Positions 12,423 through 61,544 of a stretch of 64,000 nt of DNA are shown in pieces. Position 1 is the first letter of the stretch, and every line of letters starts with the position of its first letter. Source of the DNA: an uncultured bacterium (GTDB lineage: Bacteria > Patescibacteriota > Minisyncoccia > Phycocordibacterales > GWA1-40-21); contig CAILDB010000003.1 of assembly GCA_903832855.1 (NCBI GenBank), forward strand, positions 15,398 through 79,397, given 5' to 3'. The translations under genes and the position numbers were made by a program. The notes under the pieces were generated by a model, which searched no databases, was not told the DNA's origin, and saw only the letters and a program-made list of their open reading frames with translations.

Positions 12423-12508
12423 AAAAAAAATTATTATTAATAAAATACAACCAATGTCTTAAATGCAAGGATACCATTTATCAAAAATAAAGTCAACTGC
12501 TTTACAAT

Positions 12509-14920
12509 TTAGATTATAAAGTTGATAATTTTGTTCTTGACAAAGATCGTTTTTTTAATAGGGGTTTCAAGAGTCCACTTGAAAATATCCTTATTTGATA
12601 AGGCTATTTTGGTGATTTCATCTTCATTTAGGTCGCTATTGACATCTATCACTCCACGCACTTTTCCATTTATCTGAATCGGCATTTTAATTTTTCCGGA
12701 AACAATTTTTGAACTTTCCCATTTTGGCCAGTCCGCCAAAGTAATTGATTTTTTGTTACCAAATTTTGCCCAGATTTCTTCACAAATGTGCGGAGTAAAA
12801 GGTGACAATATTTTTATAAAATCTAAATATGTTTCTCTACTTATTTTTTCTTGATTTTCTAAACCATTTGCAAATATCATCATTCCAGATATAGCAGTAT
12901 TGAAGTTCATACTTTCAATATCCTCACCAACTTTTTTAATTGTTTTGTTAATCAGAGTTATTATTTCTTCACTATCAGAAAAATTGTCCGTTACACGATC
13001 CTGTAATTTCCAAACCTTTTCCAAAAATCTTTTTGAACCAACGATATTATCTGAACTCCATGTAATAGACTGGTCAAATGGCCCCATAAACATTTCATAG
13101 GTTCTTAATGAATCTGCTCCAAGATTTTTTACAATTTCATCTGGGTTTATGACATTTCCTCTGGACTTTGACATTTTTTCTCCGTCTTCACCTAAAACAA
13201 ATCCCTGTGAAGTTCTCTTTTGATAAGGTTCGTTTGTCGGTACTAATTTTAGATCAAAAAGAAACTTATGCCAAAATCTGGAATACAAAAGGTGAAGAGT
13301 CGTGTGTTCCATTCCACCGTTGTACCAATCGACAGGTGTCCAGTATTTTAATTTCTCTATATTTGCAAATTCCTTTTTATTTTTTGGATCTGCATATCGA
13401 AGATAATACCAAGAAGAACCCGCCCAGTTTGGCATTGTATCAGTTTCTCTCTTTGCTTTTCCACCACACTTTGGACATTTTGTATTTACCCATTTTGAAA
13501 TTAATGCTAAAGGAGATTCGCCTGTATCGGTTGGTTGGTATTTTTTTACAAGCGGTAGTTTTAAAGGCAAGTCCTTTTCTTTGAGTGCAACTATTCCACA
13601 CTTCTCACAATGAACGACAGGAATCGGTTCGCCCCAATAATGTTGTCTGGAAAAAATCCAATCACGAAGCTTATAGGTTGTTGTCATTTTTCCACCTGCA
13701 AACTTTGTAATTTCAGACATTATTTCTTCGTTGTTTCGGCCGTTGAATTTTCCAGAATTGATCATTACACCACTTTCAATGTATGCTTGCTCTGCCGACT
13801 TGGAGGCTTCGCCTCCAAGTGAGATAACCTCCTTAATTGGCAAATTGTATTTTTTTGCAAAAGCAAAATCGCGGTCGTCGTGAGCTGGAACAGCCATCAC
13901 GGCACCAGTTCCATATCCGCCTAGGACATAGTCGGCAACAAAAACGGGAAACTCCTCGCCGTTCACAGGATTTATAATTTTGATTCCTTTCAGTTCAATT
14001 CCCGTCTTGTCCTTTCCATCTGCCGTCCTTTCCATCTCAGGTCTACCTTTTACTTCTTTTATATACTTATCTACTTCTTGCCAATTTTTAACCTGTGAAC
14101 TTAATTGTTGAACGAGCTCGTTCTCTGGTGCAAGTACAACATATGTAACACCAAACAAAGTATCTGGTCTTGTTGTAAATACCTTTATTTTTTTATCGCT
14201 ATTTTTTATTTTAAATTCTATTTCTGCACCTTCACTTTTTCCTATCCAATTTCTTTGCTGAATTTTAATTTTTTCCAAATAATTTACATCATCAAGGTCC
14301 TTTTCCAATCTATCTGCGTATTTGGTAATCGCAAGCATCCATTGTTCTTTCTCCTTCTTTTCAACGACTGTGCCACATCTCTCACAACAACCATTGATTA
14401 CCTCTTCATTAGCCAAACCAGTTTTGTCTTTCGGGCACCAGTTTATTAGCATCTTTTTTTTGTATGCCAATCCGTTTTCATATAGCTTCAAAAATATCCA
14501 CTGTGTCCATTTGTAATAATTTGGATCACTGGTATTTATTTCGCGTAACCAATCAAAAGAAAAACCAATTGATTTGAGTTGTCTTCTAAAAGTATTCGTA
14601 TTATTTTTTGTAACTACAGTAGGATGTATCCCGGTCTTAATAGCATAGTTTTCTGTCGGCAATCCAAATGCGTCCCATCCAATCGGATACAAAACATTGT
14701 ATCCCTCCATTCTTTTTTTCCTGCAAATCACATCCATTGCGGTGTCGGTTCGAACATGCCCCATATGAATACCATCACCAGATGGATAAGGAAATTCTAT
14801 AAGACCATAGAACTTTTTCTTTTTTGAATCTTCTTTTACAGAAAAGGTTTTTTCTTTATCCCAAATTTTCTGCCACTTCTTCTCAATTTTCTTGTGATCG
14901 TAATTTTGCGTCTTTTTCAT
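12509..14920 (-). CDS. leuS: Leucyl-tRNA synthetase
   Basis: 803 aa. HMGH and KMSKS motifs, with the CP1 editing domain. Confidence 0.95.
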   Translation of the reverse strand: MKKTQNYDHKKIEKKWQKIWDKEKTFSVKEDSKKKKFYGLIEFPYPSGDGIHMGHVRTDTAMDVICRKKRMEGYNVLYPIGWDAFGLPTENYAIKTGIHPTVVTKNNTNTFRRQLKSIGFSFDWLREINTSDPNYYKWTQWIFLKLYENGLAYKKKMLINWCPKDKTGLANEEVINGCCERCGTVVEKKEKEQWMLAITKYADRLEKDLDDVNYLEKIKIQQRNWIGKSEGAEIEFKIKNSDKKIKVFTTRPDTLFGVTYVVLAPENELVQQLSSQVKNWQEVDKYIKEVKGRPEMERTADGKDKTGIELKGIKIINPVNGEEFPVFVADYVLGGYGTGAVMAVPAHDDRDFAFAKKYNLPIKEVISLGGEASKSAEQAYIESGVMINSGKFNGRNNEEIMSEITKFAGGKMTTTYKLRDWIFSRQHYWGEPIPVVHCEKCGIVALKEKDLPLKLPLVKKYQPTDTGESPLALISKWVNTKCPKCGGKAKRETDTMPNWAGSSWYYLRYADPKNKKEFANIEKLKYWTPVDWYNGGMEHTTLHLLYSRFWHKFLFDLKLVPTNEPYQKRTSQGFVLGEDGEKMSKSRGNVINPDEIVKNLGADSLRTYEMFMGPFDQSITWSSDNIVGSKRFLEKVWKLQDRVTDNFSDSEEIITLINKTIKKVGEDIESMNFNTAISGMMIFANGLENQEKISRETYLDFIKILSPFTPHICEEIWAKFGNKKSITLADWPKWESSKIVSGKIKMPIQINGKVRGVIDVNSDLNEDEITKIALSNKDIFKWTLETPIKKTIFVKNKIINFII

Positions 14921-27914: not shown

Positions 27915-28715
27915 TTATTTTTTCTTCCCTACAATTTCAACAAAACTTAATTCCTGAATATTTACAGGACTCTTAAAAAGCACTGACTGAAAAGAATCTG
28001 TGGATTTTGATTCAACTTTTTCTACAATTCCAAAAATATTTGAACTAATAGAAGGTATGACAATACTATCGCCTTCTTTTATTCCAATCTCTTTCGGAAC
28101 CTGAACTGTAAAATTTCCATCACCCACACCCATAGCTTCCTGTGTCACATTGTTAGGACCAATCAAAACACTTATTTTTTCTCCGGGACTTGAATAAAGT
28201 TTAATTTTTGATGAGTAATCATAGACCTCTACCACCTCGCCGATAAATACAGAAACATCTGCCATCACTTTTTCTCCAACAAAAATACCATCATTTTTAC
28301 CAGCATCTACAATAATAATGTCATAAGGAGAAATTCCTGGCTTTACTAAAATAGAAGCTATCGTTAGATTTTCTGATTGTTTTTTCCTGTTAAAAAAATC
28401 CTTTAGTGTTTCATTTTCCTTTTTTACTAAATCAAAAAACAAGAGGTCCTTACTTGCATTTTCTATTTGCAGAGATAATTTTTTATTTTCTTCAATCAAG
28501 GATTTCTTTGACCTGAATGTTTCTATATTGCTATTCCATATTGTCACGACTGAATTAGAAAATTTCCAAAGTGGAGTCCCTATTTTTAATAAGATATTTT
28601 GAGAAAAATTAGCAGAAAGTAACCATATAAATAAAGCAACAAGAATCAGAATAGCAATTATCTTCAGAAGATTTCTTTGCGGTTTTTTTTCTCTACTTTT
28701 TACGAGGTAATTCAT
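27915..28715 (-). CDS. mreC: Rod shape-determining protein MreC
   Basis: 266 aa. N-terminal TM, coiled coil, C-terminal beta-rich domain. Sits in the mreB-mreC-mreD order. Confidence 0.75.
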   Translation of the reverse strand: MNYLVKSREKKPQRNLLKIIAILILVALFIWLLSANFSQNILLKIGTPLWKFSNSVVTIWNSNIETFRSKKSLIEENKKLSLQIENASKDLLFFDLVKKENETLKDFFNRKKQSENLTIASILVKPGISPYDIIIVDAGKNDGIFVGEKVMADVSVFIGEVVEVYDYSSKIKLYSSPGEKISVLIGPNNVTQEAMGVGDGNFTVQVPKEIGIKEGDSIVIPSISSNIFGIVEKVESKSTDSFQSVLFKSPVNIQELSFVEIVGKKK

Positions 28716-29754
28716 CTTCGTTTAATATTAGGACCTCTTCAAAACCATCTAGATTTTCTATAATAATTCCTGCACCACGAGCGACTGCTGTCAGGGGGTC
28801 TTGTGTCACATAAACAGGAATTTTTAAATAATCAAAAAGCAAAGTGTCTAAACCTTTTATGAGCGCACCACCGCCAATCAAATGAATTCCTCTAGACATA
28901 ACATCTGCCAAAATTTCCGGAGGGGTCGTTTCCAAAACCTCTTTCGTGGCTTCAAGCAAACTTTCAATGGACTGTGACATTGCTTCTCTAATATCTGAAT
29001 CAGTAATAATAACTTCCCTCGGCAAACCTGTAATTAAATCCCTTCCTTTAATAGATGCCTCCATCGGTTCACCGGGAACGACATTACCAACACTCATTTT
29101 AATAATTTCGGCAGTTTTTTCTCCAATCAAAATTTTAAATTCACTTCTGATATAAGAAATAATATCATTATTTAATTTATCTCCGGCTATTCGGACATTT
29201 TTTGACCTGACCACTCCAGAAAGAGAAATAACAGCAATATCCGTGGTACCTCCGCCAATATCAATAATCATATTCCCCACAGGGTCTTTTATCGGCAAAC
29301 GAATTCCGATAGCTCCGGCCATCGGTTGCTCTACAATGTATACTTCTCTTGCTCCAGCATTTTTTGTCGCATCCCGTACTGCGCGAATTTCAACATTTGT
29401 CACTCCGCTTGGCACACCGATGACAACTCTTGGCCCGAGCATTTTCGGTAAATATTCTTCAGCCCTTCTTAAAAGATGTGCAATCATTTCTTCTGTAATT
29501 TCAAAATCAGAAATCACGCCATCCACGAGGGGGCGCACAGCAACAATGTGAGCTGGCGTTCTGCCAAGCATTTCTTTTGCTTGCGTACCTACAGCCACCA
29601 CCCTACCGGTTTTTTGATTGAGTGCTACGACAGATGGCTCATTTATCACGATTCCTTTTCCAGCAATATAAACAAGCGTATTTGCAGTTCCCAAATCTAT
29701 TCCGATATCATTGGAAAGGTATTTTCTTACTTTTTTTTTCGTCTCTTCAAACAT
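28693..29754 (-). CDS. mreB: Rod shape-determining protein MreB
   Basis: 353 aa. IGIDLGTANTLVY...DIGGGTTD actin-fold signatures. Confidence 0.95.
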   Translation of the reverse strand: MFEETKKKVRKYLSNDIGIDLGTANTLVYIAGKGIVINEPSVVALNQKTGRVVAVGTQAKEMLGRTPAHIVAVRPLVDGVISDFEITEEMIAHLLRRAEEYLPKMLGPRVVIGVPSGVTNVEIRAVRDATKNAGAREVYIVEQPMAGAIGIRLPIKDPVGNMIIDIGGGTTDIAVISLSGVVRSKNVRIAGDKLNNDIISYIRSEFKILIGEKTAEIIKMSVGNVVPGEPMEASIKGRDLITGLPREVIITDSDIREAMSQSIESLLEATKEVLETTPPEILADVMSRGIHLIGGGALIKGLDTLLFDYLKIPVYVTQDPLTAVARGAGIIIENLDGFEEVLILNEDELPRKK

Positions 29755-35421: not shown

Positions 35422-36441
35422 CTATCTCTTCGCAATAATAGATTTCTTGTAAACATCCAAATGTTCCAGAGCAATTCCTGTACCTTTTGCCACACAGTAA
35501 AGCGGATCTTTTGCCACGACGGCTTTCACACCAGTTCTGCGAAAAACGAGCTCCGCCATATTGCGAAGCATTGATGAACCGCCTGTCAAAATAATTCCCC
35601 TGTCAATAATATCTGCAGAAAGTTCCGGTGGCGTCTCTTGCAAAACATCTTTTATCGCTTTTATCATATCTCGAAGCTCGCGTGAAATTGCTTTTACAAT
35701 TTCATTTGTTTTTATTTCTGTTGAACGAGGAAGTCCTGTCAGAAAATCGCGTCCTTTGATAGTCAGCGAAAGTTCTTCTTCCATCGGCACAGCACTTCCA
35801 ATTTTTATTTTAATTTCTTCAGCAGTTTTATCTCCAATTGCAAGATTGAAAGTTTTTTTAATATAATCGGCAATAGCAGCATCAATTTTATTTCCAGCAC
35901 ATTTCACGGAAGTTGAAGAAACAATTCCTCCAAGAGAAATCACCGCCACATCTGTCGTCCCTCCGCCAATATCCACCACCATATTTCCCATCGGTTCGTA
36001 AATTGGAATTCCTGCGCCGATAGCAGCGAGAATCGGCTCTTTGACAACATAAGCATTTTTGGCTCCTGCTTTTATTGCAGCTTCTATCACCGCGCGTCTT
36101 TCTGTGGAAGTCACACCAGCTGGAACAGAAATCATAACTTCTGGTTTAAAAATATTCCATTTGCCGAGTGCTTTGTTTATAAAATATTTGAGCATTGCTT
36201 CCGTCACGCGATAATCAGCGATAACTCCGTCTTTCATCGGTCTGTAAGCGATAATGCTATCTGGCGTTTTTCCAATCATTTTTTTTGCTTCTTCACCGAC
36301 GGCGAGAATTTTGTTGTCTTGTTCAGAAACCGCAACCACAGATGGCTCAAAGAGAACCACACCTTTCCCCGGCAAAAAAACGAGAGTGCTCGTTGTTCCT
36401 AAGTCAATTCCAATTTTTCTGATAAAAAATGACATATTCAC
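35422..36441 (-). CDS. Second MreB/Mbl-like actin homologue
   Basis: 339 aa. IGIDLGTTSTLVF...DIGGGTTD. Distinct from the mreB at 28693. Confidence 0.85.
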   Translation of the reverse strand: MNMSFFIRKIGIDLGTTSTLVFLPGKGVVLFEPSVVAVSEQDNKILAVGEEAKKMIGKTPDSIIAYRPMKDGVIADYRVTEAMLKYFINKALGKWNIFKPEVMISVPAGVTSTERRAVIEAAIKAGAKNAYVVKEPILAAIGAGIPIYEPMGNMVVDIGGGTTDVAVISLGGIVSSTSVKCAGNKIDAAIADYIKKTFNLAIGDKTAEEIKIKIGSAVPMEEELSLTIKGRDFLTGLPRSTEIKTNEIVKAISRELRDMIKAIKDVLQETPPELSADIIDRGIILTGGSSMLRNMAELVFRRTGVKAVVAKDPLYCVAKGTGIALEHLDVYKKSIIAKR

Positions 36442-53905: not shown

Positions 53906-55183
53906 GTGCGAAAGCACAAAGGAGAAGACGCAATGAAAACGCTAGTATTCACGCTGTTCTTGATCTGTGCAATTATTATTGTACTTGCACCATTCGTGCT
54001 AATTGTAATGTGGGCCTATAAAAAGGCAGACATTCCACTTGGGCCAGAGACAAACTGGTTCGCTAAATGCCGCCCTGGTAAGTTTATGGGCGTCCTCTTA
54101 GGAGGAGACATCTCGAAATGGTTGAGTAATGTAAATGGGTTGAGCATAAAAGGTAAGGAAGGAATGTTCACCTATAACGAGGGTGACGACCCTACCATCA
54201 AGTTGATCGAGTCTGAGAATGAGGAAGAAGGTGGCAAAATCGGTCATCTTCCAAAACGCTTCTATGAGGCTCTGAATCAACCGCCCAAAAGAACATCGCT
54301 AGCCATGTCTGGTATCCATTGGATCTGGTTTAAACCAGTTGGTGGAATTCTTAAGAAGATGTCTAGGTGGCTCGAGTGGGTGGAAGTCTTGTCGGACGAA
54401 AAGAAAGACAAGAAAGAGACAGGGAAGAGTAACCAGATACTTGCGCAAAGAGTGAAACTACGCGAGGAGTTCATTTGGGACTTCTCCATCGGAATGCAGG
54501 TGTTGATGGTTGCTCTCGATATTGAGGCTGGTAAGGCAGACCCTGTAACTACGGGGGGCAAGAAAATGATTGGGGATCTGGTGGCTGAAAAAATCGCACT
54601 AGATTTCTATGCCGTGTTCACAGTGTACATCCTTTGCCCGTACAAGGCGGTGATCATCGCTGACTGGGTCAAGGCACTGAAAGCAGAATGGGAAGCAGTT
54701 TGTACAGATTATGCAAAGGCACATTCTGTTGATCAAGCCTTCATGAAGGAGCATCTCGATACAGAAGTCATCGATAAACTCTTCCAGAGTAACCCGAAAC
54801 TCCTCCAGAAGTACGGGTTCGTGATTGGCAATATTCAGTACGAAGGTGCTGGATTTAGCGGAGATAACGAAAAATTCCGTGATGCTAGTGGTATGGCATG
54901 GATGGCTCAACAGGAAGCTGCGGCGATTAAAACCAAGGCAGATGCTTCTGCTTATGAGATATTAACCAAAGCAACTGCAACAGGAAAAGCGAACAGGCTA
55001 GAAATAGCCGGCCTTCTAAAAAACCCAGAAATGGGGAAAGCGCTATTGTGGCAACGCGCCGTCAGCGGTCACAAAGGACCTTTGTTCCTCGGAAAAGGGT
55101 CCGGAAATGGCATGCTGATACAAGACACAGCGGAGAAGGAGCCCGCTCCTGTACCCACAACAAAAGAAGGAGTTAAGAAATGA
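53906..55183 (+). CDS. Hypothetical membrane-anchored protein, possibly SPFH/band-7-like (GC-rich)
   Basis: 425 aa. N-terminal TM (LVFTLFLICAIIIVLAPFVLIVMWAY). The C-terminal Ala/Glu-rich helical region (AQQEAAAIKTKADASAYEILTKATATGKANRLEIAGLLKN) is reminiscent of SPFH C-termini. Weak assignment. Confidence 0.45.
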   Translation: MRKHKGEDAMKTLVFTLFLICAIIIVLAPFVLIVMWAYKKADIPLGPETNWFAKCRPGKFMGVLLGGDISKWLSNVNGLSIKGKEGMFTYNEGDDPTIKLIESENEEEGGKIGHLPKRFYEALNQPPKRTSLAMSGIHWIWFKPVGGILKKMSRWLEWVEVLSDEKKDKKETGKSNQILAQRVKLREEFIWDFSIGMQVLMVALDIEAGKADPVTTGGKKMIGDLVAEKIALDFYAVFTVYILCPYKAVIIADWVKALKAEWEAVCTDYAKAHSVDQAFMKEHLDTEVIDKLFQSNPKLLQKYGFVIGNIQYEGAGFSGDNEKFRDASGMAWMAQQEAAAIKTKADASAYEILTKATATGKANRLEIAGLLKNPEMGKALLWQRAVSGHKGPLFLGKGSGNGMLIQDTAEKEPAPVPTTKEGVKK

Positions 55184-56187
55184 TAGCAAACATGTGGAGT
55201 ATGATATCCCCATGGATATGGTGGGTATTTACAATCACCATTGTGGTGCTTGTGACCTATCTTTGCTGGTGGTTCCGACATGTCATACGAAAAAAGTGGC
55301 AGTGGATTGTGAAGGTTCCATGGGGTCTCTTCATAAAACCAATTGGTCACAGTGTGAAGATAAAAATAAGCGAAAAGTTTTCGCGTCTTCGCACAAAGGT
55401 GCCGGTCATGACGATCAAGCAACCCGAGAAGAAGTTCTCGTGGTGGTTGCTAATCGGTGTAGGGTTCCTTGTCCTCATCATTTGGGGACTCTGGCGCCTT
55501 GCACTTAAAGTCGTGGGTCTTGGACACACGATAGCATCAGGAGGAAATGGTGGCTGGGGTATGTTGTGGGTACTGCTGCCCATAGCCATTGCAGGATTCC
55601 TGGTTGTACAACTGGTCCGTGTGTTCAAGCCAGCCAAAAGGAAAGAAGAAAAAAAAGCCGACGAGCTGGCAGATGAACAGACCAATAGACTGAGAGGAAA
55701 AGATTCCGCCAAGTCGAAAGTCGGCTGGGTGGGAGTGATTCTCAAGGTAGTAGGTTGGTTGATTCTCGCCGGCCTTGTGGTTGATATGGTCTCATATGTG
55801 AGATCGTGTAATGATGATAAGGTCAGGGTTGAAATGGCGCAGGTACAGGAGCAAGAAAAATCAACCCTTGGTGATTGGACATACTCATGGGAGTTACCAC
55901 CCGAGGGAGGTATTGGTTCCTGCCAAATAATAGAAAAGGGCTGGTGCAAGGCCCGAGTTCAAGAAGATAACATCAACCAGTGGCTGATCGTCGCATCCGA
56001 CGAATACAAACATAAAATCCATATGGTTGGAAAAAGAAATGGAGAAAAAGGGTCTGGACACTGGACCCAAAATACAGGTGAGTATGGAGATTGGGAATTA
56101 GAGAGGGTTTCTCGAAGAAGATGGGAGGGTTGGGCAACCACCTCAGAACATCCGGGAAAAAAGTTAGACATTGCCCTCTACAAATAA
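55180..56187 (+). CDS. Hypothetical polytopic membrane protein (GC-rich; ATGA overlap with upstream gene)
   Basis: 335 aa. Four predicted TM segments, a Lys/Glu-rich loop and a ~130-aa Trp/Gly-rich soluble C-terminal domain. No known domain. Confidence 0.45.
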   Translation: MIANMWSMISPWIWWVFTITIVVLVTYLCWWFRHVIRKKWQWIVKVPWGLFIKPIGHSVKIKISEKFSRLRTKVPVMTIKQPEKKFSWWLLIGVGFLVLIIWGLWRLALKVVGLGHTIASGGNGGWGMLWVLLPIAIAGFLVVQLVRVFKPAKRKEEKKADELADEQTNRLRGKDSAKSKVGWVGVILKVVGWLILAGLVVDMVSYVRSCNDDKVRVEMAQVQEQEKSTLGDWTYSWELPPEGGIGSCQIIEKGWCKARVQEDNINQWLIVASDEYKHKIHMVGKRNGEKGSGHWTQNTGEYGDWELERVSRRRWEGWATTSEHPGKKLDIALYK

Positions 56188-56195
56188 AGCAACCG

Positions 56196-56296
56196 GGACT
56201 GCCAGACATTCGTGTCTAGGCAGTCCCTTTTTTTGTAAAAAATTTGTTTTACAAAATACAAAACAGCCCGCCTGAGGCGGGCTGTTTTGTATTTTA
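56196..56296. terminator. Two tandem intrinsic terminator hairpins (bidirectional)
   Basis: GGGACTGCCagacattcgtgtctaGGCAGTCCC followed by TTTTTTTG, then AACAGCCCGCCtgaGGCGGGCTGTT followed by TTGTATTTT. Confidence 0.55.
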
Positions 56297-56303
56297 CTTT
56301 TTC

Positions 56304-56567
56304 TTAACCCTTTATTGTCCCCAAAATAAGATTTATTATTCCCAATACAGAAAACATTATGGCCATACCTACAAGACCCCATATCATACTACTCTTGCCA
56401 TTTTTCCTACCTTCTTCACTATCCGCTTTCCAAAGAAATTGTAATACACCATAAATAAAATAAACTGTCGCTAGACCAAACAGTACCCAAAGAATAGGCT
56501 CAATAATTTGAGTATTTATATTCTTCAAAAGTTGGTCAAAACTAATTCCTACAGTAGCAAAATTCAT
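56304..56567 (-). CDS. VirB2/TrbC-type T4SS pilin-like small membrane protein, paralogue 1 (no obvious signal peptide)
   Basis: 87 aa. Two hydrophobic helices separated by the charged loop KADSEEGRKNGK. Aligns with its neighbours: IYFIYGVLQFLWKADSEEGRKNGKSSMIWGLVGMAIMFSVLG. Confidence 0.5.
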   Translation of the reverse strand: MNFATVGISFDQLLKNINTQIIEPILWVLFGLATVYFIYGVLQFLWKADSEEGRKNGKSSMIWGLVGMAIMFSVLGIINLILGTIKG

Positions 56568-56617
56568 TTTGTTTAATGTAATTTCAAATTAATGAGAAAG
56601 AAAATTTTGTACGAGAA

Positions 56618-56986
56618 TTAGTGGAGATTTGATGGTAATTCTACTTTCTGTGCTGTCCCCCCCTCAGTAGTAAAGGTATTTTGTAAAACAGTCACAAGTC
56701 CCCAAATAGAGAATATAACAGCTATTCCTACTACTGCATAAATAATATTTGTCTTTGATTTTTTCTTTGCTTCCTCATCTCCAGCAATCGTGTATTGAAT
56801 AACTTCCCAAATAAAATACAAAATAGCAACAGAGCTCAATAAAGGAATACCCCATGCGACAACACCTGAAAAAAATGTCATCCATTTTCCAAGACCTGTT
56901 GATGGTATTTGCGTTGTTACTTGTGCAAATGCCAACATAGGAGAAAGAGTAACCAAACCTAACGAAGAAACTAATAATTTTTTCAT
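56618..56986 (-). CDS. VirB2/TrbC-type T4SS pilin-like protein, paralogue 2
   Basis: 122 aa. Signal peptide MKKLLVSSLGLVTLSPMLAFA, then helix, charged loop AGDEEAKKKSK and helix: IYFIWEVIQYTIAGDEEAKKKSKTNIIYAVVGIAVIFSIWGLVTVLQNTF. Confidence 0.55.
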   Translation of the reverse strand: MKKLLVSSLGLVTLSPMLAFAQVTTQIPSTGLGKWMTFFSGVVAWGIPLLSSVAILYFIWEVIQYTIAGDEEAKKKSKTNIIYAVVGIAVIFSIWGLVTVLQNTFTTEGGTAQKVELPSNLH

Positions 56987-57088
56987 AATCTTTCTAATAA
57001 ATTAAACCTAATAAATTAATAAACGACCTTATAATTCTACCATACTATTATACCATAACAAATATAGATATCCACAACCCAATAAACC

Positions 57089-57454
57089 TTAAGGTGTCGT
57101 GAGGTTATTAAGATCTATATTTGTTGGTATTTTTGTAGTACTATTTAAATCAAAAGTTTTTTGAAGTACTGCCACCAAACCCCATATAGAAAACACTACA
57201 GCGATAGCAATAACGCCCCAAAGCATAAATTGTTTACCCTCTTCTTTTTTTGTTGAGTCCTCTGCTCGTATAAATTTTATTACCCCCCAGATAAAAACAA
57301 TGATTAGCAAACCAGTAAGTATAGGAACAACGGGTTTAATAAACTGATTAATAACGACATTTTGCATCAAGTCCTTAAATGTATTGCTGACAGCAAAAGC
57401 AAAAAAGGGTGTAAGGCCAGAAATTAAAGCTAAAGAAATAATTATTTTTTTCAT
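57089..57454 (-). CDS. VirB2/TrbC-type T4SS pilin-like protein, paralogue 3
   Basis: 121 aa. Signal peptide MKKIIISLALISGLTPFFAFA. IVFIWGVIKFIRAEDSTKKEEGKQFMLWGVIAIAVVFSIWGLVAVLQKTF is about 55% identical to paralogue 2. Confidence 0.55.
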   Translation of the reverse strand: MKKIIISLALISGLTPFFAFAVSNTFKDLMQNVVINQFIKPVVPILTGLLIIVFIWGVIKFIRAEDSTKKEEGKQFMLWGVIAIAVVFSIWGLVAVLQKTFDLNSTTKIPTNIDLNNLTTP

Positions 57455-57457
57455 ATT

Positions 57458-57844
57458 TTATGGTTTTGTTATGGCATCAACCGTGCCTTTTATAATGACT
57501 GCGAGAACTTGTGCACCCAAAAGTAATGCAATACCGACGATGGTCCACAATAGCATATCGTGTGCTTTGGATATTTTGTCTGAATTTCCCATCGCCGAAA
57601 CGTATTTAAAACCGACAAAAACAAGTGCAAGAACACAGAGAACAGCTCCAACTTTTACAATTTCAGATAATGCATCTGATATAAACTTGATTAAGTCATT
57701 AGTTTTAAGAGGATTTGATATTCCCGTAGCACTTGATGGTTGTGCATTACCTGCTGCAAAAGACAGAGAAACACAAAACAATGTTGAAAGTATTATAAAT
57801 GCCATTAAAGAAATTGCTGTTTTTTTAAAAAAATTATTTTTCAT
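57458..57844 (-). CDS. VirB2/TrbC-type T4SS pilin-like protein, paralogue 4
   Basis: 128 aa. Signal peptide and helix-loop-helix core (VLCVLALVFVGFKYVSAMGNSDKISKAHDMLLWTIVGIALLLGAQVLAVII). Confidence 0.5.
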   Translation of the reverse strand: MKNNFFKKTAISLMAFIILSTLFCVSLSFAAGNAQPSSATGISNPLKTNDLIKFISDALSEIVKVGAVLCVLALVFVGFKYVSAMGNSDKISKAHDMLLWTIVGIALLLGAQVLAVIIKGTVDAITKP

Positions 57845-57846
57845 TT

Positions 57847-58257
57847 TTATGGTTTAAAAAATCTTAAATAATCTCCATTACCTGAAGCGAAAGTATTCAT
57901 TATAGTATAAACGATAAGCCACGCTCCTGCAACTAAAAGTATACCTGTAAAAATACTTCTAAACATATGCATTGCCGCCTCTCTTTCTGCTGGCTTATCT
58001 GGATGTGCAATGATTTTTGCTCCGGACCACATCATACCTATTGCAGCAAGTGGACCCGCAATTATAAGAAACCATTTTAATATAGCATTTATCATAGTGG
58101 TCAGATCAGAAAATGAGCAGGGCTGTTCTGGTGCTGGACCACCACAGGGAACCAAATTTGCTGCAAGAACCAAAACTGGTAAAAAGAAAAGCGCTGGCAA
58201 TACCCAAATTATTATTTTTCTAATCCCGTTAGAGATCTTTTGGTTATGAATTGTCAT
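57847..58257 (-). CDS. VirB2/TrbC-type T4SS pilin-like protein, paralogue 5 (divergent)
   Basis: 136 aa. Signal anchor, then AIGMMWSGAKIIAHPDKPAEREAAMHMFRSIFTGILLVAGAWLIVYTIM, the same helix-loop-helix topology. Confidence 0.45.
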   Translation of the reverse strand: MTIHNQKISNGIRKIIIWVLPALFFLPVLVLAANLVPCGGPAPEQPCSFSDLTTMINAILKWFLIIAGPLAAIGMMWSGAKIIAHPDKPAEREAAMHMFRSIFTGILLVAGAWLIVYTIMNTFASGNGDYLRFFKP

Positions 58258-58337
58258 CTTGTTTAAATATTAACATAATTTTTTTCTAAATTCGATACTC
58301 GGATTATCTACGGAAACAATCCGATTGTTTCCTATCT

Positions 58338-59621
58338 CTAACGGGATAGCAAATTATCTATAAGTCCGCTTGCGTCTTTGACTGAGCTACCGACATCTGA
58401 TCTACCAGAGGAAATATTTTCTATCATATTTTGGAAAATTTTGGATGTTTGAGCTGAATCTGGATCAAGCCAACCCTTTGACATAAGTGCGGAAGAATAA
58501 AAGACCGATTGAATAGCGTCACTTGGCAAAGCGGACAAAAGGTCATTTCTCGTCGGAGTTAAACCAGTTACAGAAGCGAAAGTATTTTCTATACTATTTG
58601 AAGTGAAAAGATAAATCATAGAAAGTGCTTGTGCAATATTTGGAGATGTCTTCAAAACACCAAAAGAATAGATATTTCCGAAGGTTGATTTTGTTTTACT
58701 TGTATCAAGCTGGGGAAGGTTTGCAACATCAAAATTTAGATTTGGGTTTTTGGCTTTTATATCATTGTATTCGGAAGCAAAACCAAAATACATCGCCAAA
58801 TCGCCACTCAAGAAAGAATTTTTTGAAGATGGTAATGCCCTGTTCCATGAATAGACGACTTTGAGAGGATTTGAAAAATCAGTGTAAAATTTGACAGCAG
58901 GTGATGAATCAGAATTGCCGAGTGTTGATTGTGCACCATCTACGCTATTACTAACTATCGGATTTCCTGTTTGAAAAATAAGAGAGGAAATTATTTCTTT
59001 TGCATTATCTACATTTTTAAATTCACCAAAGGCAACGGCACTCCTCGTGATATTTGAATTCACATCACTCTTTGTAATTCTACTAGCAAGGTCAGGAAAT
59101 TCTGACCACTTTTTCGGTGTCTGTGCTACGCCAGCGTCTGTAAAAATGTCTTTGTTAAAATACATTACTAGAGGGTCAACGACAAATGGAATTGCATAAA
59201 TGCCATCTGATTTTAAATAAACAGAAGAACCGTCTGTAAAAGTGTCCCTAAATAATCTTTCTTGATAACTCGTGAAAGGGATAGTGAAAAGTTTGATGCC
59301 ATCTTTATAAATAAAGTCCTGTGTAACAAGGACGACATCTGGGCCAACACCATTTGCAAGGGCATTTACTAAATCGCTTTCAAAAGTATCCTTGCTTTTT
59401 GCGGTGTAAGTCATTAAAAATCCGGTAACTCCGTCTTGACTTAATTTGGAGGTGAATGCATTGAAATCAGCCGAACTTATGGTGCCCCAGACCTTCAAAT
59501 TCACAAGCGCTGCACCACTTTGCCTACTTTTGTAAGTTGCAAAAAGGACAAGTCCGAGGACAATAAAAAAACCAAACACGGCGACGACTATTAGTTGAAA
59601 ATTGTTGTTGGAATTGTTCAT
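58338..59621 (-). CDS. Membrane-anchored extracellular solute-binding protein-like (SBP family 1 / MalE-like fold?)
   Basis: 427 aa. N-terminal TM, then an alpha/beta region whose motif spacing resembles sugar-binding SBPs (GPDVVLV...AIPFVVDPLVMYFNKDIF...KKWSEF). Moderate support. Confidence 0.45.
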   Translation of the reverse strand: MNNSNNNFQLIVVAVFGFFIVLGLVLFATYKSRQSGAALVNLKVWGTISSADFNAFTSKLSQDGVTGFLMTYTAKSKDTFESDLVNALANGVGPDVVLVTQDFIYKDGIKLFTIPFTSYQERLFRDTFTDGSSVYLKSDGIYAIPFVVDPLVMYFNKDIFTDAGVAQTPKKWSEFPDLASRITKSDVNSNITRSAVAFGEFKNVDNAKEIISSLIFQTGNPIVSNSVDGAQSTLGNSDSSPAVKFYTDFSNPLKVVYSWNRALPSSKNSFLSGDLAMYFGFASEYNDIKAKNPNLNFDVANLPQLDTSKTKSTFGNIYSFGVLKTSPNIAQALSMIYLFTSNSIENTFASVTGLTPTRNDLLSALPSDAIQSVFYSSALMSKGWLDPDSAQTSKIFQNMIENISSGRSDVGSSVKDASGLIDNLLSR

Positions 59622-59670
59622 TTGTTTGATTAGGGCCGAATTTTTTGCGGCAAAAAATTCGGCCCTTTAA

Positions 59671-60279: not shown

Positions 60280-60579
60280 TCAAACCTGAGATACATCCAT
60301 GTCGGTAGACAAACCTTGCACCAAAAGATCCAATCTTTCTTTTGTATTTTTCAAGATAACTTCTTTTTCTTCACGAAGCTCGGCTAAATATTCCTCTTCA
60401 GTTATATTGTTATCATTAAATTTCGCATCAAGATTTGCTGTAGCTCTGACCAGCTCTTCTTTAGAATCAGAAAGAATTTGTTCTATTTCTTTTTTAAACA
60501 AAGTAAGTTCTGCCTCTTTATCTTCGATTTTTTTTACATACTCGTCTATTAAATTTTTTATTTCTTGATCAATATCCAT
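60280..60579 (-). CDS. Hypothetical coiled-coil protein
   Basis: 99 aa, Glu/Lys-rich heptads, no known domain. Confidence 0.45.
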   Translation of the reverse strand: MDIDQEIKNLIDEYVKKIEDKEAELTLFKKEIEQILSDSKEELVRATANLDAKFNDNNITEEEYLAELREEKEVILKNTKERLDLLVQGLSTDMDVSQV

Positions 60580-60583
60580 ATTT

Positions 60584-60940
60584 TTATACTTTAAATAATT
60601 GTCTAACTCCTATTTTTGCACCTTGTCCGACAAGATGAACGGCATTAGCCGCCACTCTAAATGTCTTGTGTGCAACGCCTTCTTTGCCAAAAAAAAGTTT
60701 AAATGCACCTTGAGTATAATTACCAAATTTATAATCTTTCTTATACAAAGTTTTCATAGCATTAAGAAATAAAGCTGTGGGAGTTTTTAATACAATACCC
60801 ACTCCAGCATCAAGTGTATTATTTCCAAGATCGCCCAAAATATTCATAAATTCGGCATTCTCCCTTGCTATCTCAGCCTGAAAAGCAGGACTATGATCTC
60901 TTGCCTCTCTTGCCGCCATCATTGTATCTAAAATACTCAT
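60584..60940 (-). CDS. Hypothetical protein
   Basis: 118 aa, no known domain. Co-directional with and adjacent to 60280..60579. Confidence 0.45.
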   Translation of the reverse strand: MSILDTMMAAREARDHSPAFQAEIARENAEFMNILGDLGNNTLDAGVGIVLKTPTALFLNAMKTLYKKDYKFGNYTQGAFKLFFGKEGVAHKTFRVAANAVHLVGQGAKIGVRQLFKV

Positions 60941-61043
60941 ATGTTTATGATATCATACAATTAATTGTATGCATATGCTTTTATTTTAACATAAATATGG
61001 ATTATGGAAATGATTTCGAATATTTCATGATATAATTATAACC

Positions 61044-61544
61044 ATGGAAAATAAATTGATAAAAATATCTGCTTTAATATTTATCGTGCTGATTGCCGTT
61101 TGGGGTATTTATTTTTATTTTAATAAAAATTTACCAATTTCAATCGGAGATAAACTTGGTGGTATGAAAATAGTAAAAATTGAACCATATTCAAAAGAAA
61201 GTGAGATACCATTTGGGCCAAATAATATAAAAGTACTTTTAAAAGGACCGATTACTGTAAGCGGTGAATATGATCCTGCTGAGCCGTCGCCAGATATTCC
61301 ATGGTGGGAAAATTGTGTCGGTATCTTTAAACTTGATAAGGCGTCTGTTTCTCTTTTACCACAATTACCCTGGTTTAAAAGTGAAGGTTTAAATGGAGTC
61401 TGTTTTAATAATCAAGATTTTGCAAAAAGTATATTAGGTGAAAAGAAGAAAATGGTTACCATAAAAATCGATAATTATGAATTAAATGACTACCCGTCTA
61501 ATGTACAAAATGTAGTGGATTTTGTAGAGGTTGCAAACGAGTAG
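61044..61544 (+). CDS. Hypothetical membrane-anchored protein
   Basis: 166 aa, N-terminal TM (ISALIFIVLIAVWGIYFYF), no known domain. Confidence 0.45.
   Translation: MENKLIKISALIFIVLIAVWGIYFYFNKNLPISIGDKLGGMKIVKIEPYSKESEIPFGPNNIKVLLKGPITVSGEYDPAEPSPDIPWWENCVGIFKLDKASVSLLPQLPWFKSEGLNGVCFNNQDFAKSILGEKKKMVTIKIDNYELNDYPSNVQNVVDFVEVANE

What the first reader, a model, noticed from the sequence alone, without database searches (positions are those of the whole stretch)
56304..58257. Tandem array of five paralogous VirB2/TrbC-type (T4SS pilin-like) small proteins
Five co-directional genes of 87-136 aa share one design: a cleavable-looking signal peptide, a hydrophobic helix, a short Lys/Glu-rich loop and a second hydrophobic helix. 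Paralogues 2 and 3 are about 55% identical across IxFIWxVIxxxxAxDxxKKxxxKxxxxxxVxGIAVxFSIWGLVxVLQxTF. This matches the topology of VirB2/TrbC/T4SS pilin families (Pfam TrbC, T4SS_pilin) rather than type IV (GFTLIE) prepilins. No VirB4, VirB6, VirD4 or relaxase gene lies in the window. The array sits between a GC-rich two-gene membrane operon of unknown function and a membrane-anchored solute-binding-like protein. Five pilin paralogues in tandem with no visible secretion ATPase is unusual. Candidate explanations are antigenic or host-range variation of a conjugative or attachment pilus, or a distinct surface-filament system in a reduced or episymbiotic bacterium.
Basis: partly seen in the sequence, partly recalled or inferred. 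Interest (0 to 1): 0.65.

Follow-up and report, generated by a model that had tools for sequence, protein, structure and literature searches.

The report
VirB2-like pilin gene array, Patescibacteria
Five adjacent small genes encode VirB2/TrbC-like "T4SS pilin" membrane hairpins in a Patescibacteria (CPR) chromosome, a kind of array already published, but here they form a fixed-order set always encoded directly after, and in some relatives fused to, a sugar-binding-protein-like surface protein.

Summary
Five co-directional minus-strand ORFs (87-136 aa, 56304-58257) all reach the Pfam PF18895 T4SS_pilin threshold. Four have Sec-type signal peptides and the fifth has none. The family assignment is supported. 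"Unusual" is not: VirB2-like pilin arrays of 2-11 genes are published for Patescibacteria (Wang 2023; Quinonero-Coronel 2025), and about 40% of pilin genes lie away from virB4.

The host is a Paceibacteria-class CPR bacterium. In 59 of 59 related genomes with enough sequence, 3-7 pilin genes directly follow the same membrane-anchored, MalE-like binding protein (window 58338-59621). gyrA and a methyltransferase lie upstream, and no VirB4 lies within 10 kb.

Paralogue order is conserved: positions 1, 2, 3 and last match their window counterparts in 51-52 of 59 arrays. This argues for five non-redundant subunits, not interchangeable antigenic variants. At least five database proteins fuse the binding protein to a pilin-1 module, which suggests physical coupling.

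The pilins evolve faster than the flanking genes. Pilus formation, dependence on a T4SS and the role of the binding protein are inferred, not shown.

The parts
58338..59621 (-). Membrane-anchored MalE-like solute-binding-protein homologue (427 aa). It lies directly upstream of the pilin array and is probably its partner.
   Evidence: Pfam SBP_bac_1 at 2.6e-19 and SBP_bac_8 at 1.7e-16. The AF2 model has pLDDT 89.5, with an N-terminal helix at residues 7-34. The best Foldseek PDB matches are oligosaccharide-binding proteins (sophoro-, malto-, manno- and cello-oligosaccharide) at E about 1e-21 and TM 0.66-0.73. In 59/59 related loci the pilin array follows this gene on the same strand, with a median gap of 5 nt. 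Five database proteins fuse it to a pilin-1 module.
58312..58332 (-). 9-bp hairpin (GGAAACAAT-CGG-ATTGTTTCC) in the 80-nt gap between the binding-protein gene and pilin 1. No T-run follows it.
   Evidence: Read directly from the sequence. Not tested further. In relatives this gap is usually about 5 nt.
57847..58257 (-). Pilin 1 (136 aa). It has a signal peptide, then LVPCGG...C (a Cys pair), then a two-helix hairpin ending GAWLIV.
   Evidence: PF18895 at 44.6 bits. Motif seen in alignments A2 and A3. The position-1 type is conserved in 51/59 arrays. In relatives this type carries large N-terminal extensions or the fused binding protein.
57458..57844 (-). Pilin 2 (128 aa). This is the paralogue closest to canonical TrbC/VirB2 and carries a conserved NPL motif.
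   Evidence: PF18895 at 26.6 bits and PF04956 TrbC at 25.7 bits (cut-off 27.9). Of its orthologues, 46/56 hit PF04956 at E <= 1e-3, best 1.3e-9. The position-2 type is conserved in 52/59 arrays.
57089..57454 (-). Pilin 3 (121 aa).
   Evidence: PF18895 at 37.3 bits. It is 36% identical to pilin 4. The position-3 type is conserved in 51/59 arrays.
57047..57074 (-). Promoter-like site (TGGATA, 16 nt, TATAAT, with an extended -10 TG) in the 102-nt gap before pilin 4.
   Evidence: Consensus scan, 10/12 matches. The scan found fewer sites than shuffles give (10 against 14), so this is only a lead.
56618..56986 (-). Pilin 4 (122 aa).
   Evidence: PF18895 at 39.3 bits. AF2 gives pLDDT 79.3 with a hairpin of helices 31-67 and 71-106.
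56304..56567 (-). Pilin 5 (87 aa). It is the hairpin only, with no signal peptide.
   Evidence: PF18895 at 35.8 bits. It has two hydrophobic segments only. The last-position type is conserved in 51/59 arrays, and the last ORFs are typically 78-110 aa.
56253..56295 (.). Long palindromic GC-rich hairpin flanked by A-runs and T-runs. It looks like a bidirectional terminator closing both the pilin array and the convergent operon.
   Evidence: Terminator scan: 20 pairs, 9 of them GC. Sequence.
53906..56187 (+). Convergent two-gene membrane operon (425 aa and 335 aa) with higher GC. It sits where relatives have an SPFH/Band_7-like gene and its partner. It is a conserved neighbour, but its membership in the system is uncertain.
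   Evidence: GC is 0.47. There is no Pfam hit. Relatives have a Band_7 gene plus a small partner at the same convergent position. The partner's C-terminal half is 33% identical to that of L003, E 4e-21. The 425-aa protein is only weakly similar to the L003 Band_7 protein (19%, E 3e-4).

Best explanation
The locus encodes a conserved surface module of Paceibacteria-class Patescibacteria. It consists of a membrane-anchored, oligosaccharide-binding-protein-like receptor followed by five distinct VirB2/TrbC-superfamily pilin-like subunits.

Shown: family membership, the two-helix hairpin, signal peptides on four of the five, the fixed order of paralogue types, the invariable linkage to the binding-protein gene, natural fusions of the binding protein to pilin 1, and the absence of a nearby VirB4.

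Inferred: the subunits are inserted in the cytoplasmic membrane with both ends outside and the Lys/Glu loop inside. Pilins 1-4 would go through Sec and signal peptidase I. Pilin 5 would insert without a signal peptide. The subunits are then assembled into a heteromeric filament or stalk, in which the different types have different roles. The assembling machine would be the monoderm-type (MPF-FATA-like) chromosomal T4SS, which most Patescibacteria encode elsewhere, typically near dnaA. Pilin 1 would tether the sugar-binding domain to this structure, so that it can recognise or capture host-surface glycans during epibiotic attachment or uptake.
For: All five pass PF18895. Pilin-2 orthologues hit PF04956 TrbC/VirB2 in 46/56 cases. 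Hydropathy and AF2 give a hairpin of two helices of about 36 residues each.

Each paralogue is 53-64% identical to its positional counterpart in L003, against 17-36% to the other paralogues. The order of types is conserved in 51-52 of 59 arrays.

In 59/59 loci found through the binding protein alone, 3-7 pilin genes follow it directly, with a median gap of 5 nt. In L008 an inversion moved four pilins but left pilin 1 abutting the binding-protein gene.

Five proteins fuse the binding protein to a pilin-1 module: P0231, P0232, P0234, P0300 and P0304. The full-length ones share 46-65% identity. They have no hydrophobic segment between the two parts, which fits the predicted topology. Some position-1 pilins carry N-terminal extensions of 150-250 aa. 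Some arrays contain two pilin modules fused into one ORF.

From the literature: VirB4 is present in 2,417 of 3,035 Patescibacteria assemblies, and pilin genes lie near virB4 in only 1,135 of 1,948 (PMC12102498). A Paceibacteria Nomurabacteria genome has VirB4 at CDS 545 and a VirB2 + PrgF + PrgF cluster at CDS 786-788. The pilin array is essential in Southlakia epibionticum (PMC10633639). T4SS pilins are among the most highly expressed secreted-protein genes in Paceibacteria co-cultures (PMC10936435).
Against: No pilus has been seen for any of these proteins. A VirB4 in this organism could not be checked, because only the window, about 10 kb beyond its start and about 4 kb beyond its end were accessible.

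The window proteins fall below the curated cut-offs of PF04956 and of NCBIfam NF045849.

gyrA and the methyltransferase are almost as constantly linked as the binding protein (56/61 and 59/61). Synteny alone therefore does not prove function.

In the fusion proteins the binding domain is held by a transmembrane segment at each end. That fits a membrane-resident complex better than an extruded filament, unless the N-terminal anchor is cleaved.
Confidence: 0.5

Rival explanations
1. The five hairpin proteins do not form a pilus. They form a membrane-embedded hetero-oligomer (5 x 2 = 10 transmembrane helices) that works with the binding protein as an uptake or sensing device. This would resemble ABC importers whose binding domains are fused to the permease. 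It would act either independently of the T4SS or as the membrane conduit of a T4SS repurposed for import.
For: The binding protein is fused to a pilin module, with a membrane segment at both ends. No ABC permease or ATPase gene lies between gyrA and the end of the array in any locus. No VirB4 lies within 10 kb in about 85 loci. There is a weak co-linear match to pCF10 PrgF, a small membrane protein of a Gram-positive T4SS that makes no pilus (hhalign E 0.002, probability 14%). Published profile hits label such distal genes as PrgF. Reviewers have speculated that the Patescibacteria T4SS takes up host molecules (PMC12857230).
Against: No energising component is linked to the locus. VirB2-family proteins are known only as pilins or T4SS stalk subunits. 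Signal peptides and a conserved two-helix hairpin fit pilins equally well. The PrgF similarity is not significant by probability.
Confidence: 0.2
2. The paralogues are interchangeable major pilins that provide antigenic or host-range variation of one pilus, as proposed for Bartonella and Anaplasma VirB2 copies.
For: The pilins evolve faster than their flanks. Window against L003: pilins 53-64%, binding protein 69%, methyltransferase 85%, MurJ 84%. Window against L092: pilins 57-74%, binding protein 95%. Positions 3-5 arose by lineage-specific duplication: in the more distant L005 only positions 1 and 2 still map. Copy number varies from 3 to 7. The literature proposes host-strain adaptation (PMC12102498).
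Against: The order of types is fixed in 51-52 of 59 arrays, and each paralogue is closest to its positional orthologue. The types differ structurally: a Cys pair in type 1, TrbC-like in type 2, no signal peptide in the last. Gaps of 2-3 nt between pilins 1-3 indicate co-expression, not switching. No silent cassettes or recombination repeats were looked for.
Confidence: 0.12
3. The proteins are unrelated small two-transmembrane proteins, such as holins, bacteriocin-immunity proteins or other hydrophobic peptides, that match the pilin model by composition.
For: The proteins are short and hydrophobic. Several weak hits to unrelated membrane families appear at E of 0.004-0.3. The hairpin fold is generic.
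Against: All five pass a curated Pfam threshold, and orthologues reach 6e-15 on PF18895 and 1.3e-9 on PF04956. No holin or immunity family is hit in Pfam, NCBIfam or PHROGs. The locus is a vertically inherited chromosomal core region, not a prophage.
Confidence: 0.03

Closest known systems
VirB2-like pilin arrays of Patescibacteria. Examples: Southlakia epibionticum ML1 T4SS cluster SEML1_0006-0019 (Wang et al. 2023, PMC10633639); the survey by Quinonero-Coronel et al. 2025 (PMC12102498); the TM7x 'Sec-secreted array'.
   Same: Tandem genes for small PF18895/PF04956 proteins. Low identity between copies (published average 25%, maximum 54%; here 17-36%). A monoderm CPR host. No relaxase nearby.
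   Different: The well-studied arrays lie inside or near the virB4 cluster. This one is more than 10 kb from any VirB4 and sits between gyrA-methyltransferase-binding protein and an SPFH-like pair. The linkage and fusion to a binding protein, and the fixed order of types, were not mentioned in the papers I could read (one search found no occurrence of solute, SBP or gyrA in PMC12102498). In that paper's Table S3, PF18895 hits appear only for genes near virB4. Distal copies were picked up only by the T_virB2, G_tfc9 or FATA_prgF profiles.
TrbC/VirB2/TraA conjugative pilins of Gram-negative T4SSs (Pfam PF04956)
   Same: A signal peptide followed by a two-helix hydrophobic hairpin with a short charged loop. 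Pilin 2 and its orthologues match the family profile.
   Different: These proteins are not encoded with virB3-B11. There are five distinct paralogues instead of one major pilin plus VirB5. The host has no outer membrane. One copy lacks a signal peptide. Cyclisation, phospholipid binding and polymerisation are unknown.
Small membrane proteins of monoderm conjugation systems: pCF10 PrgF (MPF-FATA) and the Mbov_0395/ICE_MMCAP2_0565 'pilin-like conjugal transfer protein' of Mycoplasma ICEs (NCBIfam NF045849)
   Same: Proteins of about 75-90 aa with a two-transmembrane hairpin in monoderm T4SSs. All five window proteins give sub-threshold NF045849 hits of 23-33 bits. PrgF aligns co-linearly to the pilin profile.
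   Different: All scores fall below the curated cut-off of 40 bits, or below significance (hhalign probability 14%). Those proteins are single-copy, plasmid- or ICE-borne, and adjacent to VirB4.
Archaeal bindosome (Bas system of Sulfolobus; PMC3047682). This is a functional analogy only.
   Same: Sugar-binding proteins are associated with small pilin-like proteins in a surface structure of an organism without an outer membrane.
   Different: There the binding proteins carry class III (type IV pilin) signal peptides and are assembled by a type IV pilus-like ATPase and membrane protein. There is no homology to VirB2-type proteins.
ABC importers with substrate-binding domains fused to the membrane subunit, such as OpuA and GlnPQ (from general knowledge, not tested here)
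   Same: A binding-protein fold is covalently tethered to a membrane-embedded partner, as in the binding protein-pilin-1 fusions.
   Different: The partner here is a two-helix VirB2-like hairpin, not an ABC permease. No ABC ATPase or permease is linked to the locus.

Membership tests
Pfam PF18895 T4SS_pilin | Score at or above the gathering threshold (26.6 bits) | tested here: met
   Scores are 44.6, 26.6, 37.3, 39.3 and 35.8 bits for pilins 1-5. Pilin 2 is exactly at the threshold. 55/56 of its orthologues hit the family.
Pfam PF18895 T4SS_pilin | Small protein built around a two-helix hydrophobic hairpin | tested here: met
   Hydropathy. AF2 model of pilin 4 with helices 31-67 and 71-106, pLDDT 79.
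TrbC/VirB2 pilins (PF04956) | Profile match above the curated cut-off (27.9 bits) | tested here: inconclusive
   The best window score is 25.7 bits for pilin 2, then 14.7 for pilin 4. 46/56 position-2 orthologues match at E <= 1e-3, best 1.3e-9.
TrbC/VirB2 pilins (PF04956) | Cleavable N-terminal signal peptide preceding the hairpin | tested here: inconclusive
   Sequence features (positive N-region, hydrophobic core, AXA-like site) are present in pilins 1-4 and absent in pilin 5. No dedicated predictor or experiment was available.
TrbC/VirB2 pilins (PF04956) | Encoded within a T4SS gene cluster containing VirB4 | tested here: not met
   No VirB4, VirD4 or VirB6 domain in the window, in about 10 kb beyond its start or in about 4 kb beyond its end. 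None within 10 kb in about 85 related loci.
TrbC/VirB2 pilins (PF04956) | Fold matching solved VirB2/TraA pilus subunits | tested here: inconclusive
TrbC/VirB2 pilins (PF04956) | Polymerises into an extracellular pilus in a VirB4-dependent way | not testable with these tools
   Needs microscopy and genetics. The structure tool predicts monomers only.
Patescibacteria VirB2-like pilin arrays (PMC12102498, PMC10633639) | Two or more VirB2-like genes in tandem, or separated by one gene, with low mutual identity, in a Patescibacteria genome | tested here: met
   Five in tandem at 17-36% identity. Homologues are named Paceibacterota, Minisyncoccia, Nomurabacteria, Taylorbacteria and Wolfebacteria.
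Patescibacteria VirB2-like pilin arrays (PMC12102498, PMC10633639) | Located in or near the virB4 cluster, as in Southlakia | tested here: not met
   The published survey itself reports that pilin genes are away from virB4 in 813 of 1,948 assemblies.
Patescibacteria VirB2-like pilin arrays (PMC12102498, PMC10633639) | A VirB4-type T4SS present elsewhere in the same genome | not testable with these tools
In a related case, Nomurabacteria GCA_000990275.1 has VirB4 at CDS 545 and a distal VirB2 + PrgF + PrgF cluster at CDS 786-788.
Type IV (T4P) prepilins | Class III signal peptide (G|FTLIE-type) cleaved by a prepilin peptidase | tested here: not met
   The N-termini are ordinary Sec-type with AXA-like sites, and no N_methyl hit appears.
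Holins / bacteriocin-immunity proteins | Match to a holin or immunity family; phage or bacteriocin gene context | tested here: not met
   No such hits in Pfam, NCBIfam or PHROGs. The context is housekeeping genes.
pCF10 PrgF-like proteins (MPF-FATA) | Detectable homology to PrgF | tested here: inconclusive
   hhalign of profile A6 against pCF10 PrgF gave E 0.002, probability 14%, 53 co-linear columns. PrgG gave no match. Published CONJScan hits label neighbouring genes of distal arrays as PrgF.
ABC-transporter solute-binding proteins (SBP_bac_1, MalE-like) - for the upstream gene | Binding-protein sequence family and two-lobe fold | tested here: met
   Pfam 2.6e-19. AF2 pLDDT 89.5. Foldseek E about 1e-21 to oligosaccharide-binding proteins.
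ABC-transporter solute-binding proteins (SBP_bac_1, MalE-like) - for the upstream gene | Encoded with its cognate ABC permease and ATPase | tested here: not met
   None in the window. In related loci the flanks are the methyltransferase and gyrA upstream and pilins downstream. ABC ATPases appeared in only 2 of the 10 large or Walker-A ORFs from the flanks that were scanned.

The most novel reading that the evidence does not exclude
Across Paceibacteria, an orphan oligosaccharide-binding protein is physically coupled to a fixed-order, five-type set of VirB2-like subunits, and in some lineages covalently fused to one of them. The set is encoded apart from VirB4. The T4SS-pilin apparatus of these epibionts would then be a glycan-recognising or nutrient-capturing surface organelle, a T4SS-derived 'bindosome' or import conduit, and not a conjugation or effector-delivery pilus.
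Probability: 0.3. Interest if true: 0.65.

Novelty: new variant of a known kind. Interest (0 to 1): 0.4.

Why it matters
What the Patescibacteria T4SS and its pilin arrays do is an open question. They are essential in the one genetically tractable species, yet they lack relaxases and known effectors.

Three observations give a concrete, testable lead. In a large class (at least 575 species-level genomes) the pilin set is fixed in order. It is inherited with a sugar-binding receptor. It is sometimes fused to that receptor. The apparatus may therefore recognise or import host-derived glycans.

The results also indicate that published surveys centred on virB4 neighbourhoods under-count these distal arrays. 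As a bare observation, that is, a tandem pilin array without an adjacent ATPase in a CPR genome, the finding is ordinary.

Tried and rejected
1. Exact look-up of the window's GyrA found nothing on record. Pilin 1 and the histidine kinase were found instead.
A four-sequence alignment worked.
3. Sequence searches of PDB with pilin profiles gave only insignificant hits, such as the phage coat protein G8P, driven by the signal peptide.
4. Fold searches of the pilin model were uninformative, because helical hairpins are generic.
5. I could not obtain a Patescibacteria VirB4 sequence. I therefore could not test for VirB4 in this organism or in the relatives' other contigs. pCF10 PrgJ was judged too distant to be useful.
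6. The held part of the supplement of PMC12102498 does not contain the assemblies I had loci for.
7. BLAST detection of the SPFH-like neighbour found it in only 14 of 42 loci. It is too divergent, so its conservation rests on the seven Pfam-annotated look-ups in different species, one of which (L007) shows a convergent pair with no Band_7 hit.
8. PHROGs and Rfam scans added nothing.
9. Considered and rejected: a mobile element or prophage origin (the context is housekeeping, syntenic and vertically inherited); type IV pilins; holins.
Full report
**1. What is in the sequence**

Between 56304 and 58257 the minus strand carries five consecutive ORFs of 136, 128, 121, 122 and 87 aa. I number them pilin 1 to pilin 5 in the direction of transcription. 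The gaps between them are 2, 3, 102 and 50 nt. A long palindromic terminator-like hairpin at 56253-56295 closes the array and also the convergent operon.

All five match Pfam PF18895 (T4SS_pilin) at or above the gathering score: 44.6, 26.6, 37.3, 39.3 and 35.8 bits. Pilin 2 also scores 25.7 bits on PF04956 TrbC/VirB2, just under the cut-off of 27.9. All five give sub-threshold hits to the Mycoplasma ICE 'pilin-like conjugal transfer protein' NF045849.

Hydropathy shows a signal-like segment plus two transmembrane segments in pilins 1-4. Pilin 5 has only the two transmembrane segments. Its ORF is already maximal, and it begins where the AFA cleavage site of its paralogues aligns.

An AlphaFold2 model of pilin 4 was built on an alignment of 82 sequences. 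It has pLDDT 79 and forms a hairpin of helices 31-67 and 71-106.

Paralogue identities are 17-36%.

**2. Genomic setting**

The 64-kb window is ordinary chromosome: gyrA, topA, dprA, relA/spoT, parB, miaA, murJ, serS, two mreB genes, mreC, two class-B penicillin-binding-protein homologues, several aminoacyl-tRNA synthetases, uvrB and others. GC is 37.6% and there are three tRNAs.

Homologues of the pilins and of the neighbouring binding protein come from Paceibacterota, Minisyncoccia, Nomurabacteria, Taylorbacteria, Wolfebacteria and Kaiserbacteria MAGs. The organism is therefore a Paceibacteria-class member of the Patescibacteria (CPR).

The exact proteins occur on contigs from many samples (103 index blocks for pilin 1).

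No VirB4, VirD4, VirB6 or relaxase domain occurs in the window. None occurs in about 10 kb beyond its start or in about 4 kb beyond its end.

**3. What is already known**

PF18895/PF04956 'VirB2-like' pilin arrays are published for Patescibacteria.

- A survey of 3,035 genomes found VirB4 in 2,417 of them. It found VirB2-like genes in 1,948 VirB4-containing assemblies, near virB4 in 1,135 of those. It found 441 arrays of 2-11 pilin genes, with average identity 25% and maximum 54% (PMC12102498).
- A 2025 review calls this the one exception to the rule that Gram-positive-type T4SSs lack pilins (PMC12857230).
- In Paceibacteria co-cultured with methanogens, T4SS pilins are among the five most highly expressed signal-peptide genes (PMC10936435).

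A tandem pilin array without an adjacent ATPase in a CPR genome is therefore not unusual.

**4. What the surroundings add**

Every look-up of a homologous pilin on a long contig returned the same neighbourhood: S1-domain protein, Lactamase_B_3, gyrA, (methyltransferase), membrane-anchored SBP_bac_1 protein, 5-7 pilin genes, then a convergent pair (a small protein plus a Band_7/SPFH-like protein). This held for L001-L010, with two partial exceptions: the L007 convergent pair has no Band_7 hit, and L010 has no convergent pair.

I then searched 185,579 species-representative genomes using only the binding protein. I built a local pilin HMM from 93 sequences, most of them PF18895-annotated homologues, and searched all ORFs with it.

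- 59 of 59 loci with at least 3.5 kb downstream have 3-7 pilin ORFs directly after the binding-protein gene on the same strand. The counts are five in 27 loci, six in 18, seven in 7, four in 6 and three in 1. The median gap is 5 nt.
- gyrA lies upstream in 56/61 loci and the methyltransferase in 59/61.
- Clustering all ORFs of 450 aa or more in these loci, followed by a Pfam scan of ten large or Walker-A-containing ORFs from the flanks, found no VirB4-like protein.

In this class the array is thus systematically away from virB4. The published survey places virB4 of Paceibacteria near dnaA/dnaN.

That survey's Table S3 shows PF18895 assignments only for genes near virB4. Distal copies appear only when they match T_virB2, G_tfc9 or FATA_prgF. 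For example, Nomurabacteria GW2011_GWF1_34_20 has VirB4 at CDS 545, and T_virB2 + PrgF + PrgF at CDS 786-788 flagged 'not near VirB4'. This suggests that arrays of the present type were only partly recognised. It also shows that a related genome has VirB4 elsewhere.

**5. The five genes are distinct, ordered subunits**

Against the orthologous array in L003, each window pilin is 53-64% identical to the pilin at the same position. It is only 17-36% identical to the others.

Over the 59 arrays, the best-matching window paralogue depends on position:

| Position in array | Best-matching window type | Arrays |
|---|---|---|
| 1 | pilin 1 | 51/59 |
| 2 | pilin 2 | 52/59 |
| 3 | pilin 3 | 51/59 |
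| last | pilin 5 | 51/59 |
| penultimate | pilin 4 or pilin 3 | 56/59 (32 and 24) |

The types differ structurally.

- Type 1 often has a Cys pair (LVPCGG...C) just after the signal peptide.
- Type 2 is the TrbC-like one. Of its orthologues, 46/56 hit PF04956, best 1.3e-9.
- The last type lacks a signal peptide and is 78-110 aa long.

In the more distant L005 only types 1 and 2 can still be matched, and positions 3-5 are lineage-specific duplicates. Some arrays contain two pilin modules fused into one ORF, the second without a signal peptide.

This pattern fits a heteromeric assembly with specialised subunits. It does not fit a set of interchangeable antigenic variants.

The pilins do evolve faster than their flanks. 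Identities between the window and two related loci are as follows:

| Gene | Window vs L003 | Window vs L092 |
|---|---|---|
| Pilins 1-5 | 53-64% | 57-74% |
| Binding protein | 69% | 95% |
| Methyltransferase | 85% | 97% |
| MurJ | 84% | 83% |

In the L092 comparison the drop falls right at the junction between the binding-protein gene and pilin 1. Surface-driven diversification of each subunit is therefore plausible.

**6. The binding protein is a partner, not just a neighbour**

The 427-aa protein has an N-terminal hydrophobic helix (residues 7-34) and a confident two-lobe fold (pLDDT 89.5). Its closest solved structures are oligosaccharide-binding proteins of ABC importers, for beta-1,2-gluco-, malto-, manno- and cello-oligosaccharides (E about 1e-21). 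No permease or ATPase gene accompanies it in any locus.

Three observations go beyond synteny.

- (a) In L008 an inversion reversed four pilin genes, but pilin 1 still starts at the base after the binding-protein gene's stop codon.
- (b) Some position-1 pilins carry N-terminal extracellular extensions of 150-250 aa, so this type can present a domain.
- (c) In L028 the binding protein and pilin 1 form one 560-aa ORF. A database search with that ORF found further full-length fusions: P0232 (568 aa, 65% identical), P0300 (597 aa, 46%) and P0304 (594 aa, 46%), plus the N-truncated P0234.

Each full-length fusion has the N-terminal anchor, the binding domain, a non-hydrophobic linker of 25-75 aa, the Cys pair and the pilin hairpin (pilin HMM i-E 1e-14 to 1e-17). 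None has a hydrophobic signal segment between the parts. That is exactly what the predicted topology requires, with the binding domain outside and the mature pilin N-terminus outside.

Because the fusions are this divergent from one another, an assembly error is unlikely. By Rosetta-stone logic, the binding protein and pilin 1 act together.

**7. Most likely mechanism, and what remains inferred**

Shown:
- family membership;
- hairpin topology features;
- the fixed paralogue order;
- linkage and fusion to the binding protein;
- distance from VirB4.

Inferred:
- membrane insertion with the Lys/Glu loop inside;
- extraction and polymerisation by the distal MPF-FATA-like T4SS into a heteromeric filament or stalk;
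- pilin 1 tethering a glycan-binding domain that recognises or captures host-surface sugars.

I give this about 0.5.

The main rival, at about 0.2, is a membrane-resident hetero-oligomer working with the binding protein in uptake or sensing. Several things favour it. The fusion proteins have membrane segments at both ends. There is a weak co-linear similarity to pCF10 PrgF (hhalign E 0.002 but probability 14%). No linked ATPase is present.

Antigenic variation of interchangeable pilins gets about 0.12. A non-pilin identity gets about 0.03, because there are no holin or immunity hits.

The fold comparison could not discriminate between these options, because helical hairpins match thousands of unrelated structures.

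**8. Verdict**

The array is real, and it is correctly identified as VirB2/TrbC-type. As such it is a known feature of Patescibacteria.

What I did not find described in the literature I could search is the Paceibacteria-wide architecture:
- it lies away from virB4;
- the order of types is fixed;
- it always follows a MalE-like binding protein, and is sometimes fused to it.

I therefore rate it a new variant of a known kind, with moderate interest. The literature search was limited to open-access full text, so earlier mention elsewhere cannot be excluded.

Noticed in passing
window 53906-56187 (+): This convergent two-gene membrane operon has GC 0.47 against 0.376 for the window. It occupies the slot where relatives have a Band_7/SPFH-like gene plus a small partner. 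The pair evolves extremely fast: the partner is 30-33% identical, and the 425-aa protein about 20% or undetectable, between genomes whose MurJ is 83% identical. It has no Pfam hit in the window.
   Followed up: partly
window 56304-59621 compared with L092:557-3724: There is a sharp discontinuity in divergence. The methyltransferase (97%) and the binding protein (95%) are nearly identical between the window and L092. The pilins drop to 57-74% right after the binding-protein gene's stop codon, and MurJ is 83%. This suggests recombination with a breakpoint at the junction between the binding-protein gene and pilin 1.
   Followed up: partly
L028:10001-11683; proteins P0231, P0232, P0234, P0300, P0304: These are natural fusions of the MalE-like binding protein to a pilin-1 module. 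They have an N-terminal anchor, no internal signal peptide and three hydrophobic segments in all. They occur in at least two divergent groups.
   Followed up: yes
L009:10001-10705, L070:12550-13281, L083:12275-13210; P0002-P0010, P0082: PF18895 proteins of about 231-311 aa contain two complete pilin modules in one ORF. The second module has no signal peptide. This makes a four-transmembrane 'double pilin'.
   Followed up: partly
L021:9462-10394, L025:11288-12424, L053:11282-12160 and 12172-13338: Position-1 pilins, and one position-2 pilin, carry Cys-rich, PT-linker-containing N-terminal extracellular extensions of 150-250 aa ahead of the hairpin.
   Followed up: no
window 60280-61544: Three small genes of unknown function (99 aa, 118 aa and, on the opposite strand, 166 aa) lie between gyrA and the methyltransferase. 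They are present in this species (L001, L002) and absent in L003, where gyrA is followed directly by the methyltransferase. The 99-aa protein has a weak CdiI_2 immunity hit (E 0.008).
   Followed up: no
window 59632-59666: A perfect 16-bp palindromic hairpin (AGGGCCGAATTTTTTG CGG CAAAAAATTCGGCCCT) fills the 49-nt gap between the methyltransferase and the binding-protein genes. In several relatives these two genes overlap by 4 nt instead.
   Followed up: no
L005:816-2226 and L005:4223-8704 (GCA_004196295.1): In a relative, a reverse transcriptase plus a bAvd accessory gene (a DGR-like pair) lies about 8 kb upstream of the pilin array. The gyrA of that genome carries an intein with a LAGLIDADG domain.
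   Followed up: no
Supplementary Table S3 of PMC12102498: PF18895 assignments appear only for genes flagged as near virB4. Distal pilin-like genes are listed only when they hit T_virB2, G_tfc9 or FATA_prgF. Many of the 627 'PrgF' hits in Patescibacteria may therefore be members of distal pilin arrays like this one.
   Followed up: partly
window 28693-29754 and 35422-36441: Two full-length MreB paralogues sit in one 64-kb stretch, together with mreC and two class-B penicillin-binding-protein homologues (transpeptidase plus PBP-dimer domains). This implies an elaborate rod-shape machinery for a reduced genome.
   Followed up: no
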